This document shows, piece by piece, positions 11,259-28,874 of a stretch of DNA of 64,000 nt. Source of the DNA: Escherichia phage ECML-1; sequence record OL631478.1. The stretch is one strand, 5' to 3'. A program made the translations under genes and the position numbers. Below the pieces are notes generated by a model. It searched no databases. It saw only the letters and a program-made list of their open reading frames with translations, and was not told the DNA's origin. Every line of letters begins with the position of its first letter. The first letter of the stretch is position 1.

Positions 11259-19277
<8,019 letters not shown>

Positions 19278-26680: not shown

Positions 26681-27064
26681 TCAAATACCTGTGCAGCTTC
26701 TGTTTTCTAAGAAATACTCAACGCCATACATAGCTTTTTGCATCAAATCTTCTTTAAACTGGATACGGTGGTTGAGCATCGCCTGTACATCAATATCATC
26801 ATGGTGTTTCTCTTTAATGTTTGCAGATTGCAGGAAATACTCTGCAAGAACACGATATTGATAGTCAGTCACCTTATCAGTCATCTCTGTTAAAGACTCT
26901 TCAGAGATTGGTTTAAGTAGTTCACCTTTAGATAGAGCAACACCTTTTACAATCTGACAAGTATCCTCTGGGACACCTGATAAGTTCACATTTGGCAGTT
27001 CTGTTGCATTGACTGGTAAATTCATTGCCATAACCATTGCAGCAGCTAATAAAATCTTTTTCAT
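26681..27064 (-). CDS. Secreted/periplasmic hypothetical protein
   Basis: N-terminal signal peptide MKKILLAAAMVMAMNLPVNA; GAGG RBS; candidate promoter upstream. Confidence 0.5.
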   Translation of the reverse strand: MKKILLAAAMVMAMNLPVNATELPNVNLSGVPEDTCQIVKGVALSKGELLKPISEESLTEMTDKVTDYQYRVLAEYFLQSANIKEKHHDDIDVQAMLNHRIQFKEDLMQKAMYGVEYFLENRSCTGI

Positions 27065-27108: not shown

Positions 27109-27137
27109 AAAATAAGCTATAACACCTGACTTGTCAA
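27109..27137 (-). promoter_or_regulatory. Candidate sigma70-like promoter for gene 26681..27064
   Basis: On minus strand: TTGACA - 17 nt - TATTTT, ~55 nt upstream of start codon. Confidence 0.35.
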
Positions 27138-27161
27138 CAGATTTTATAGCTTATTTGGCAG

Positions 27162-27310
27162 ATTTTTTTATAAGGCTACTGCCATCCTTCCATACCTTAC
27201 CTAACCAAACCGAACCTCACACAACCAGACCGAGCCGCACCCCGCCTTATTAAAAGACCCTCTTAAAGACCTTTTAAAAAGGTAAGTCTCATTTTAATGT
27301 AGCTGAGACT
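27162..27310. repeat. Structured intergenic repeat unit A (X-block hairpin, C+A-rich tract, palindrome IR1)
   Basis: ATTTTTTTATAAGGCTACTGCCATCC block; ~66 nt tract ~77% C+A; palindrome CCTTATTAAAAG-accctcttaaagac-CTTTTAAAAAGG (27245-27282); hairpin AGTCTCA/TGAGACT (27285-27310). Confidence 0.75.
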
Positions 27311-27437
27311 AACTACCCGCACCGAACCTCACCTGACCTGACCGCGCCATACCTAACCGTGCCTTACCACACCTCACTTAAAAACCCTTTTAAAAGACTC
27401 TTAAGTGATGTAATCGAATTTTTATGTAGCTCCGATT
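27311..27437. repeat. Structured intergenic repeat unit B
   Basis: AACTACCC + C+A-rich tract with CCTCACC core; inverted repeat CACTTAA-N19-TTAAGTG (27375-27407); hairpin AATCG/CGATT around conserved ATTTTTATGTAGCT (27412-27437). Confidence 0.75.
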
Positions 27438-27564
27438 AACTACCCATACCTCACTTTACCTAACCTGACCTTACAAGACCGTACCTGACCCGACCCCACC
27501 TCGCAGTACCTTGTTAAAAGACCCTCTTAAAGACCTTTTAAAAAGGAGCCTCCGAAGAGGCTAC
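27438..27564. repeat. Structured intergenic repeat unit C (ends in minus-strand terminator)
   Basis: AACTACCC + C+A-rich tract; palindrome CCTTGTTAAAAG-accctcttaaagac-CTTTTAAAAAGG (27509-27546); terminal hairpin AGCCTC-CGAA-GAGGCT. Confidence 0.75.
27536..27564 (-). terminator. Rho-independent terminator (minus strand) downstream of gene 27574..28014
   Basis: Minus-strand reading: AGCCTC-TTCG-GAGGCT(CC) hairpin followed by TTTTT. Confidence 0.55.
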
Positions 27565-27573
27565 CTAGTCAAC

Positions 27574-28014
27574 TTAGAAAGGTTTTCTACGTTGCTTGTT
27601 AATGTTAGCTTTCATAGCAGCTAAATGGTTTTGCTGTTCAATCAGTCGTGAACGTTCTTGATGACTAAGTGCCATAGTGTTCACATTCTCAATCGCTTGA
27701 GTGGCTTGCTTTAAAGCACGACCAATCTTACCAGACATTTTACGTTTTGCAATAGTTGCTTGATGTTTAGGTTCAACCACACGATAACCAACACCCATTG
27801 AAGCAACCAGATAAATCTTCTCTTCTTTAAGAAGCTTCTCAATAAACTTCTCAAGTCGGTTTAGACGTGTAAGCGCATAAGCCTTCATTTCATCTTCGTA
27901 CTTAACAATGTCACCTTGATAAGTTGGCTTCACAATACCTAAGAAGGTGTCCATCTCAGAATGTGATACAGTGTCACCGTAACTAAACTTTGCTGCTAAT
28001 GCTTTTGTATTCAT
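27574..28014 (-). CDS. Hypothetical protein
   Basis: 146 aa ORF, bracketed by repeat units. Confidence 0.45.
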   Translation of the reverse strand: MNTKALAAKFSYGDTVSHSEMDTFLGIVKPTYQGDIVKYEDEMKAYALTRLNRLEKFIEKLLKEEKIYLVASMGVGYRVVEPKHQATIAKRKMSGKIGRALKQATQAIENVNTMALSHQERSRLIEQQNHLAAMKANINKQRRKPF

Positions 28015-28016
28015 AA

Positions 28017-28622
<606 letters not shown>

Positions 28623-28685
28623 TTAGTTGATTGTTAAGTTGTTTGTAAAGAACCCTCAACAGAAGACTCTTTAGAAACTTGGTAG

Positions 28686-28858
28686 ATTTTTAACGTGGCT
28701 ACTACCATCCACCCATACCTCACCTAACAACACCTAACAACACAAAACTACACCCCACACCACCGCACCACACCAAACATCACTTAAAAACCCTCTTAGA
28801 AGACCCTTAAGTGATGCTGGTGAGTACCCGTTGGTTTATGCTGCTCAGTATACTCACC
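28686..28858. repeat. Structured intergenic repeat unit D (fourth copy, non-tandem)
   Basis: GGTAG-atttttaacgtggCTACTACC X-block hairpin; 80 nt tract ~90% C+A with CCTCACC core; inverted repeat CACTTAA-N19-TTAAGTG (28781-28813); hairpin GGTGAGTA/TACTCACC (28819-28858). Confidence 0.75.
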
Positions 28859-28874
28859 AAATTTTCTATGTCAA
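28847..28874 (-). promoter_or_regulatory. Candidate sigma70-like promoter (minus strand) overlapping repeat-unit hairpin
   Basis: On minus strand: TTGACA - 16 nt - TATACT, located just downstream of ligase stop; -10 lies within the TACTCACC hairpin arm. Confidence 0.4.

What the first reader, a model, noticed from the sequence alone, without database searches (positions are those of the whole stretch)
27162..27564. Tandem array of three ~128-bp structured, extremely C+A-rich non-coding repeat units
A ~400-bp non-coding stretch in an otherwise tightly packed operon holds three head-to-tail units with a shared architecture. (1) A conserved X-block (ATTTTTATGTAGCT...AACTACCC) enclosed by inverted repeats whose sequence differs in every copy but stays complementary (AGTCTCA/TGAGACT, AATCG/CGATT, and GGTAG/CTACC in the fourth copy at 28.69 kb), a covariation pattern that argues for a selected secondary structure. 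(2) A 60-80 nt tract that is ~77-90% C+A and almost G-free on the + strand (G/T-rich with many GG doublets on the gene-coding minus strand), containing a recurrent CCTCACC core. (3) A palindrome built around ACCCTCTTAAAGAC: CCTTnTTAAAAG...CTTTTAAAAAGG in units A and C, CACTTAA-N19-TTAAGTG in unit B. It is not a CRISPR array, a tRNA or a coding sequence. Candidate roles, all inference: a structured ncRNA or leader; PeSL-like promoter/stem-loop cassettes mediating modular gene shuffling; a replication origin or protein-binding iterons; or a G-rich-strand structure such as a two-tetrad G-quadruplex.
Basis: seen in the sequence. Interest (0 to 1): 0.8.

Follow-up and report, generated by a model that had tools for sequence, protein, structure and literature searches.

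The report
Phage VIPR guide-RNA (vrRNA) array
The repeats are four guide RNAs of a phage-encoded, CRISPR-like "VIPR" system that flank its two protein genes and are aimed at a parasitic satellite element of E. coli; this is striking biology, but it was described in 2026 for a phage system whose protein is 98% identical.

Summary
There are three head-to-tail units of 126-135 nt (27157-27546) and a fourth at 28681-28816. All four are sense to the minus-strand genes.

Read on that strand, each unit has three parts:
- a 38-39-nt hairpin;
- a 34-nt H-type pseudoknot.

This matches the type II VIPR locus of Escherichia phage SUSP1 described in two 2026 bioRxiv preprints. There, one Vipr protomer binds each GGY, and the NN dinucleotides read double-stranded DNA with a one-nucleotide skip to repress transcription.

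I reproduced that rule. Three of the window's four guides match an E. coli satellite element at 19/20, 19/20 and 21/24 NN positions, and no shuffle of the NN order did as well (0 of 300).

Verdict: already known. Small undescribed residues remain: the 5' hairpin, and decayed orphan units in phages of the Felix O1 type that lack vipr.

The parts
28847..28874 (-). Promoter P_A (TTGACA-16-TATACT) that drives vrRNA1 and vipr
   Evidence: Sigma-70 consensus scan, 11 of 12 positions. The same promoter precedes the first unit in KhF3 and in the phages that lack vipr. That it functions as a promoter is inferred.
28681..28816 (-). vrRNA1 (unit D, upstream of vipr): hairpin 28816-28778, pentamer tract 28777-28715, pseudoknot tail 28714-28681. 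Its GGY motif is decayed; only 7 of 13 triplets are GGT.
   Evidence: nhmmer E 1e-31; fold; pentamer parse; no target found, with 180 of 300 shuffles doing as well.
28017..28604 (-). vipr gene. The product is 195 aa, starting at the ATG at 28604. The ORF list starts it at an upstream GTG at 28619.
27574..28014 (-). vap1 (vipr-accessory protein), 146 aa
27547..27562 (-). Intrinsic-terminator-like hairpin AGCCTCTTCGGAGGCT after vap. Its T-run is the 5' arm of the next unit's hairpin.
   Evidence: Terminator scan.
27412..27546 (-). vrRNA2 (unit C): hairpin 27546-27509, tract 27508-27446 (13 pentamers), pseudoknot tail 27445-27412
   Evidence: The guide matches 21 of 24 NN positions in the satellite large serine recombinase gene (L256 12610-12648), with the skip base at the codon wobble position; 0 of 300 shuffles do as well.
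27285..27410 (-). vrRNA3 (unit B): hairpin 27410-27372, tract 27371-27319 (11-12 pentamers), pseudoknot tail 27318-27285
   Evidence: The guide matches 19 of 20 NN positions in the satellite recombinase gene (L254 12860-12892, L250 12861-12893), in wobble phase; 0 of 300 shuffles do as well.
27157..27282 (-). vrRNA4 (unit A): hairpin 27282-27245, tract 27244-27192 (11 pentamers), pseudoknot tail 27191-27157
   Evidence: The guide matches 19 of 20 NN positions over the start of a 96-aa satellite gene (L258 10573-10605, L259 10617-10649, L261 10070-10102); 0 of 300 shuffles do as well.
27109..27137 (-). Promoter P_B (TTGACA-17-TATTTT) of the next gene (127 aa); it marks the downstream edge of the locus
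   Evidence: Consensus scan, 10 of 12 positions; conserved in all relatives read.

Best explanation
The region is the guide-RNA part of a type II VIPR (Viral Interference Programmable Repeat) locus of a Felixounavirus.

**Layout on the minus strand.** Promoter P_A, then vrRNA1, vipr, vap1, a terminator-like hairpin, vrRNA2, vrRNA3 and vrRNA4, then promoter P_B.

**Mechanism shown experimentally for the SUSP1 system, whose Vipr is 98% identical (two preprints).**
- The units give RNAs of about 100 nt made of the pentamer tract plus the 3' pseudoknot.
- One Vipr protomer, a minimal RAMP/Cas7-like protein, binds each pentamer. It flips out and sequesters GGY, and the subunits form a helical filament capped by the pseudoknot.
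- The free NN dinucleotides pair with double-stranded DNA in which every third base is skipped.
- The complex sits on the target and represses transcription.

**Shown here.**
- The anatomy of the units, and the identity and fold of the protein.
- Guides 2-4 of this window fit a roughly 11-kb satellite element present in 474 of 5426 complete E. coli genomes. That element carries tape-measure and baseplate genes related to the phage's own.
- The fitted sites are two in its large serine recombinase gene and one over the start of a small gene.

**Inferred.**
- The array serves to silence a satellite that parasitises the phage.
- The downstream array is transcribed by read-through from P_A.
- The 38-39-nt hairpin in front of each tract is the spacer that is removed, or that bounds the filament at the 5' end.

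For: **RNA.**
- Each tract has 11-14 NNGGY repeats, with GGY conserved and NN hypervariable across 90 distinct units.
- The 3' pseudoknot covaries in both stems.

**Architecture.** One unit lies upstream and three downstream of vipr-vap, exactly as reported for SUSP1.

**Literature.**
- System definition, sRNA-seq, co-purification, the 1-nt skip rule, GFP repression and the satellite targets: 10.64898/2026.04.26.720920.
- Filament with one protomer per repeat, and the pseudoknot cap: 10.64898/2026.04.26.720927.

**Independent replication of the rule.** With nine satellite loci, 43 of 84 guides from related phages gave 103 hits at 80% NN match or better. All were inside satellites and none was in an equal amount of flanking chromosome. 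Skips of 0, 2 and 3 nt gave 0, 1 and 3 hits.

**This window's guides.** A, B and C match 19/20, 19/20 and 21/24 NN positions, and no shuffle of the NN order did as well (0 of 300). The skip base falls on the codon wobble position for the two targets inside a gene (coordinates). No self-target was found in the window under the 1-nt rule.
Against: - No expression data exist for this particular phage.
- A terminator-like hairpin stands between vap and the downstream array, and no promoter was found inside the units. How vrRNA2-4 are transcribed is therefore assumed by analogy with SUSP1.
- vrRNA1 has a decayed GGY motif and no detectable target. The preprint reports that perturbing GGY abolishes silencing, so this guide may be inactive.
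- The fold of Vap1 could not be confirmed as DNA-binding.
- Only 13 of the 474 genomes that carry the satellite were examined, and no guide matches perfectly.
Confidence: 0.95

Rival explanations
1. The element is a regulatory leader or attenuator. A ring-shaped or cooperative RNA-binding protein (like TRAP, or T4 gene 32 protein) would bind the GGU triplets and control the downstream genes in cis. It would not be a trans-acting guide.
For: Before I found the literature this was my working idea. There are 11-14 triplets with 2-nt spacers, as in the TRAP site. A pseudoknot sits next to an unstructured tract, as in the gene 32 leader. The unit lies in the 5' UTR of vipr.
Against: - NN is hypervariable, yet it matches foreign DNA under one specific gapped rule. 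A cis-regulatory site has no reason to do that.
- The binding protein is identified as a RAMP with a solved RNA-DNA complex.
- Three units lie downstream of the genes.
Confidence: 0.02
2. The element acts at the DNA level as a replication origin. A strong promoter plus a G-rich non-template strand would form an R-loop, and the GGT array on the displaced strand would serve as primase sites or iterons.
For: P_A lies directly upstream. The G-rich RNA over a C-rich template favours R-loops (established for the ColE1, T4 and mitochondrial origins; my own knowledge). The locus lies among replication genes.
Against: - The G.U pairs and the covarying pseudoknot argue for a folded RNA.
- Copy number varies from 1 to 6 per genome, and the tract sequence is free to vary.
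- The two genes bracketed by the units are absent from phages of the Felix O1 type, which are viable.
- This idea does not explain the matches to the satellite.
Confidence: 0.01
3. The plus-strand C-rich, G-poor tract is a Rho-utilisation (rut) site that terminates antisense transcription.
For: A C-rich, G-poor, unstructured stretch of 60-70 nt is the classical rut signature.
Against: - No plus-strand promoter was found upstream.
- The conserved A that precedes the C, and the 5-nt register, do not fit Rho's YC recognition.
- The hairpin forms fully only on the minus strand.
Confidence: 0.01
4. The units are PeSL-like mobile cassettes, or neutral repeats, whose only role is to promote recombination and shuffling of gene modules. 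A two-tetrad G-quadruplex is a related structural idea.
For: - The vipr-vap pair is present or absent among relatives exactly between units. The phages that lack it carry a hybrid unit that looks like the recombination product.
- Copy number varies.
- GGNNN repeats could form two-tetrad quadruplexes.
Against: - The units contain no promoter, which is the defining part of PeSL.
- Recombination between repeats is a side effect of any direct repeat.
- Neither idea explains the conserved pyrimidine after GG, nor the target matches.
Confidence: 0.01

Closest known systems
Type II VIPR system of Escherichia phage SUSP1 (bioRxiv 10.64898/2026.04.26.720920 and 10.64898/2026.04.26.720927; PDB 36pp)
   Same: - The Vipr protein is 98% identical.
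- A vap gene follows vipr. The window's is 99% identical to that of SUSP2, the SUSP-type relative available to me.
- One vrRNA lies upstream and three downstream.
- The tracts hold 11-14 GGY/NN repeats and end in a 3' pseudoknot tail.
- The guides fit the same E. coli satellite family under the 1-nt skip rule.
   Different: - The host genome is a Felixounavirus rather than a Suspvirus.
- The NN guide sequences are this phage's own.
- vrRNA1 here has a decayed GGY motif.
- The 38-39-nt hairpin before each tract is not mentioned in either preprint.
Class 1 CRISPR-Cas effector (crRNA with a Cas7/Csm3/Cmr4 backbone)
   Same: A RAMP protein with an RRM core, G-loop and thumb oligomerises along a guide RNA and flips bases out periodically (preprints).
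   Different: - There is no repeat-spacer array, no cas1/cas2 and no adaptation.
- The guide is read non-contiguously: 2 of every 5 RNA bases against 2 of every 3 DNA bases.
- There is one protomer per 5 nt, and no PAM.
- The system is phage-encoded.
TRAP bound to the trp leader of Bacillus (11 (G/U)AG triplets with 2-3-nt spacers)
   Same: An oligomeric protein reads a triplet every 5 nt while the spacers stay free.
   Different: TRAP is a closed 11-mer ring that acts in cis on attenuation, and its spacers carry no information. Here the 'spacers' are the guide.
PeSL cassettes of T4-type phages (early promoter plus stem-loop)
   Same: Repeated intergenic elements that flank variable gene modules and can mediate their gain or loss.
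   Different: No promoter is found in these units, and they encode a functional RNA.

Membership tests
VIPR system (type II, SUSP1 clade) | A Vipr protein of about 20 kDa with a RAMP fold (RRM core, G-loop, thumb) | tested here: met
VIPR system (type II, SUSP1 clade) | The residues that hold GGY and the skipped base (H17, K33, E71, M72, R138, C173, D177, W178, R179) | tested here: met
   All are present at these positions in the window's protein and identical to SUSP1 in the alignment.
VIPR system (type II, SUSP1 clade) | vrRNA with 9-16 tandem YNNGG repeats, GGY conserved and NN hypervariable | tested here: met
   There are 11-14 repeats per unit in the window. Over 1188 pentamers from 90 distinct units: G 80%, G 99%, T 91% plus C 9%, and NN free.
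VIPR system (type II, SUSP1 clade) | A conserved 3' tail that folds into a pseudoknot | tested here: met
   I found it independently. Stem 1 has 4 bp, 100% paired, with 3 pairs covarying. Stem 2 has 5-7 bp, with 6 pairs covarying. No shuffle reached the observed score (0 of 500).
VIPR system (type II, SUSP1 clade) | A minimal locus: vipr plus vap, flanked by vrRNAs (SUSP1 has one upstream and three downstream) | tested here: met
   In the whole KhF3 genome, units occur only at these two intergenic sites.
VIPR system (type II, SUSP1 clade) | Guides match natural DNA targets under the 1-nt skip rule (at least 80% of NN positions) | tested here: met
   Guides A, B and C match 19/20, 19/20 and 21/24 positions in E. 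coli satellites, and no shuffle did as well (0 of 300). Other skip lengths fail. Guide D is not met.
VIPR system (type II, SUSP1 clade) | vrRNAs are expressed as RNAs of about 100 nt and co-purify with Vipr; the complex represses transcription | not testable with these tools
   Shown for SUSP1 only.
VIPR system (type II, SUSP1 clade) | Vap of type II is a predicted DNA-binding protein (winged-helix or HTH-like) | tested here: inconclusive
CRISPR array | Identical short direct repeats alternating with unique spacers, next to cas genes | tested here: not met
   The conserved parts are a 38-nt hairpin and a 34-nt pseudoknot around a pentamer tract. No cas1 or cas2 is present, and no family was found in PADLOC, Pfam or NCBIfam.
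PeSL cassette (T4-type phages) | An early sigma-70 promoter inside each repeat, followed by a stem-loop | tested here: not met
   The promoter scan finds sites only at 28874-28847 and 27137-27109, both outside the units.
Known RNA families (Rfam 15) and tRNA | A covariance-model or ARAGORN match | tested here: not met
   No hit at the gathering threshold, and nothing meaningful at E up to 10. No tRNA.

The most novel reading that the evidence does not exclude
Two features not described in the VIPR preprints could be new biology.

(i) The conserved 38-39-nt hairpin, rich in G.U pairs, in front of every tract. It may be the element that defines the 5' end of each vrRNA. It could do so as a host RNase processing site, or as a stop for the Vipr filament, which grows 3'-to-5' from the pseudoknot.

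(ii) vrRNA units may act as recombination substrates that delete or insert the vipr-vap pair. This would leave decayed orphan vrRNAs in phages of the Felix O1 type. It could also let satellites that have no vipr of their own carry vrRNAs that borrow the helper phage's Vipr.
Probability: 0.4. Interest if true: 0.4.

Novelty: already known. Interest (0 to 1): 0.3.

Why it matters
VIPR is a newly described way of recognising DNA with RNA. It uses a gapped code and a RAMP ancestor of CRISPR, so locating natural loci and their targets is useful.

This window gives a complete, natural four-guide locus in a Felixounavirus. Three of its guides are assignable to specific sites in a widespread E. coli satellite. 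The comparison set (0-3 units per site, presence or absence of vipr-vap, 90 distinct guides) documents rapid guide turnover in a phage genus used for typing and biocontrol.

It adds no new principle beyond the 2026 preprints.

Tried and rejected
**Ideas held before the literature hit, then dropped.**
- A nut-like antiterminator: GGTCTTTTAACAA resembles boxA, and a GT-rich box C could follow.
- A site for a TRAP-like ring protein.
- An array of SD-like sequences acting as a ribosome sponge.
- An R-loop origin with primase sites.
- A rut site on the plus strand.
- An array of ops-like or pause sites.

None of these explains free NN bases that match foreign DNA.

**Searches that gave nothing useful.**
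- Rfam at the gathering and E-value thresholds, and ARAGORN.
- The first IMG/VR pattern (TAARAGGGTYTTTTAA) was too unspecific and mostly returned chance hits.
- One literature search with min_terms=2 was wasted.
- The Felix O1 genome paper and the Bas63 essentiality preprint do not mention the element.
- SUSP1 could not be fetched under the accession I guessed from memory (NC_028808.1), so I used SUSP2 and the PDB sequence instead.

**Results that stayed negative or inconclusive.**
- No target for vrRNA1 in 13 satellite loci, nor in the window itself.
- An early partial match of guide A (14/14 then 1/8, L254 4781-4813) was superseded by the 19/20 site.
- The Vap1 fold search was inconclusive.
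- Pfam, PHROGs, NCBIfam and PADLOC give no function for either protein.

Full report
**What the window is.** The window comes from a Felixounavirus, a myovirus like Felix O1. The 4 kb around the finding is 92-96% identical to many Escherichia, Salmonella and Shigella phages of that genus. Genes here run on the minus strand. The finding occupies the 510-bp gap between a 146-aa ORF (27574-28014) and a 127-aa ORF (26681-27064).

**Checking the observation.** The repeat is real.
- An HMM built from the four copies finds exactly four units in the window, all on the minus strand: 27546-27412, 27410-27285, 27282-27157 and 28816-28681.
- Their tracts are the strongest C-over-G outliers in 64 kb: 24-35 per 70 nt against a mean of -1.8 and sd of 6.
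- No tRNA gene and no Rfam family matched, even at E up to 10.

**Anatomy on the gene strand.** Each unit has three parts.
1. *A 38-39-nt hairpin.* It comes in two stem types, CCTTTTTAAAAG... and CATCACTTAA.... As minus-strand RNA it pairs over 16-18 bp, including 3-4 invariant G.U pairs. It is therefore incomplete on the plus strand.
2. *A tract that is a strict pentamer repeat.* An example is GAGGU GUGGU AAGGC ACGGU UAGGU ... The window has 11-14 pentamers per unit. Across 1188 pentamers of 90 distinct units from relatives, position 3 is G in 80%, position 4 is G in 99%, position 5 is T in 91% and C in 9%, and positions 1-2 are free.
A 4-bp stem 1 (GTAG/CTAC, GTGG/CCAC, AAGG/CCTT) interlocks with it, and an A-rich loop 3 follows. 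On 17 distinct tails, 91% of cells pair against 71% in shuffles, 9 of 11 pairs change on both sides, and slid registers collapse to 28-40%.

**Context.**
- In the whole genome of phage KhF3, units occur only at two intergenic sites. These are the two sites that flank the 200-aa and 146-aa ORFs in the window.
- The upstream unit always follows a consensus sigma-70 promoter, 28874-28847 in the window.
- The downstream array follows a terminator-like hairpin (27562-27547) and ends at the promoter of the next gene (27137-27109).
- Copy number per site ranges from 0 to 3 among relatives.
- The element is also present in Mooglevirus and Suspvirus.

**The lead.** It returned degenerate NNGGT tracts in many unrelated viral contigs. 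These tracts are intergenic, co-oriented with the genes, and often several per contig. So the motif is widespread.

A literature search for pentanucleotide repeats in phage then returned bioRxiv 10.64898/2026.04.26.720920. That preprint describes VIPR systems:
- a phage-encoded Vipr protein, which is a minimal RAMP;
- an accessory Vap protein;
- vrRNAs of 9-16 YNNGG repeats with conserved GGY and hypervariable NN, followed by a conserved tail that is a pseudoknot in the SUSP1 clade.

Its reference locus, Escherichia phage SUSP1 (Ounavirinae), has one vrRNA upstream and three downstream of the two genes. The RNAs are about 100 nt and co-purify with Vipr. The NN bases read dsDNA with one base skipped per repeat, binding represses transcription, and 18 of 20 natural targets lie on an E. 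coli satellite.

A companion preprint, 10.64898/2026.04.26.720927, gives cryo-EM structures. One protomer binds per repeat, GGY is flipped out and held by named residues, the pseudoknot caps the 3' end, and the filament extends 3'-to-5'.

**Membership tests.**
- *Distribution.* The family has 519 homologues at E up to 1e-3 in diverse bacteria and metagenomes. No model exists for it in Pfam, NCBIfam or PADLOC.
- *Vap.* The second gene is 99% identical to SUSP2 gp039. Its fold could not be settled.

**Testing the code.**
- *Finding the satellite.* The window's gene after the tape-measure gene is 70-95% identical in DNA to a 'phage baseplate protein' gene in 474 of 5426 complete E. coli genomes. 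The element is about 11 kb. It lies between yciI and tonB, or in a DUF72 gene, or next to wrbA. It carries tape-measure, baseplate, HNH and large serine recombinase genes.
- *Guides from related phages.* With nine satellite loci, 43 of 84 distinct guides gave 103 hits at 80% NN match or better under the 1-nt skip. All were inside satellites and none was in an equal length of flanking chromosome. Skips of 0, 2 and 3 nt gave 0, 1 and 3 hits. With 13 loci, 44 of 69 guides of the Felix type had a hit.
- *The window's guides*:

| Guide | Unit | NN matches | Target site | Shuffles as good |
|---|---|---|---|---|
| vrRNA3 | B | 19/20 | Recombinase gene, L254 12860-12892 | 0 of 300 |
| vrRNA2 | C | 21/24 | Recombinase gene, L256 12610-12648 | 0 of 300 |
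| vrRNA4 | A | 19/20 | Start of a 96-aa gene, L258 10573-10605 | 0 of 300 |
| vrRNA1 | D | 17/24 (no target) | none | 180 of 300 |

- For vrRNA2 and vrRNA3 the skipped base falls on the third codon position.
- The dinucleotide just before the tail (AT or GC) never pairs, so it belongs to the constant part.
- No self-target exists in the window under this rule.

**What is left over.**
- vrRNA1 has only 7 of 13 GGY triplets and no detectable target, so it may be inactive.
- Four relatives lack vipr and vap: the Felix O1-type phage FO1a, BPS17L1, P219 and ASO1A. Each keeps one hybrid unit between the two promoters, made of the hairpin type of the upstream site and the tail type of the downstream site. 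This is what recombination between flanking units would leave. Its GGY motif is decayed and it has no target at 80% or better.
- The satellites have no vipr or vap homologue, yet one of them carries a tract plus tail (L253 3644-3736).
- Neither preprint mentions the 5' hairpin. The mature RNA is about 100 nt, which is the tract plus the tail. The hairpin is therefore probably removed, or it bounds the filament. This is inference.

**Verdict.** The element itself is a vrRNA array of a type II VIPR locus, already described in 2026 for a system with a 98%-identical protein. Interest is therefore low to moderate, despite the intrinsic importance of the system.

Noticed in passing
L129 3509-3632, L130 3508-3633, L131 3508-3633, L128 3508-3628 (all minus strand): The Felix O1-type phage FO1a, BPS17L1, P219 and ASO1A lack vipr and vap. 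Each keeps one hybrid vrRNA-like unit between promoters P_A and P_B. About half of its GGY triplets have decayed to TGT, TGC or AGT, and it has no target at 80% or better in 13 satellite loci. It looks like the scar of a deletion by recombination between flanking units. The VIPR preprints do not mention it.
   Followed up: partly
window 28681-28816 (-): The upstream vrRNA1 of this phage has only 7 of 13 GGY triplets and no detectable target. It is identical in phage nataliec, so it is either conserved as it stands or recently decayed.
   Followed up: partly
window 27245-27282, 27372-27410, 27509-27546, 28778-28816 (-): A 38-39-nt hairpin precedes every tract. It has two stem types and 16-18 bp, with 3-4 invariant G.U pairs, and in some relatives a 20-nt insertion in the apical loop (L079, L104). 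Neither VIPR preprint describes it. It is a candidate processing site or a 5' stop for the filament.
   Followed up: partly
L249 6000-17400 and L250-L261; window 13507-14064: An E. coli satellite of about 11 kb is present in 474 of 5426 complete genomes and sits at three or more integration sites. Its baseplate gene is up to 95% identical in DNA to the phage's gene. It carries no vipr or vap homologue, yet L253 3644-3736 (-) holds a vrRNA-like tract plus tail. There are 1.5-2.5-kb unannotated gaps near its left end.
   Followed up: partly
window 27110-27156 (-): A 13-bp inverted repeat, AAATAAGCTATAA / TTATAGCTTATTT, embraces the -35 hexamer of promoter P_B and is followed by a T-run. It could be an operator, or a weak terminator for transcripts coming from the array.
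   Followed up: no
window 28817-28856 (-): An inverted repeat, GGTGAGTA ... TACTCACC, spans the -10 hexamer and the start region of promoter P_A. It could be an operator for the vipr operon.
   Followed up: no
L141, L147, L169, L171, L205, L210, L216, L222, L226, L245 (IMG/VR): A 15-nt-periodic GGTTAGGTTAGGTAA tract sits directly after iteron-like repeats (such as ATGGATACA and AATGTATAC) and lies within stop-free spans of about 700-900 nt. It may be another type of VIPR array or a replication origin.
   Followed up: no
L162, L163-L168, L248, L247, L244, L160 (IMG/VR): Unrelated viral contigs carry many degenerate NNGGT tracts, up to 36 pentamers long. Some are back-to-back with phase shifts (L244, L160), which fits the 'staggered arrays' of other VIPR types in the preprint.
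   Followed up: no
bioRxiv 10.1101/2024.10.10.617714 (phage Bas63): Gp130 of the Felixounavirus Bas63 is reported there as structurally similar to Ro60 and sits next to the tRNA cluster. This hints at a second RNA-protein system in this phage genus.
   Followed up: no
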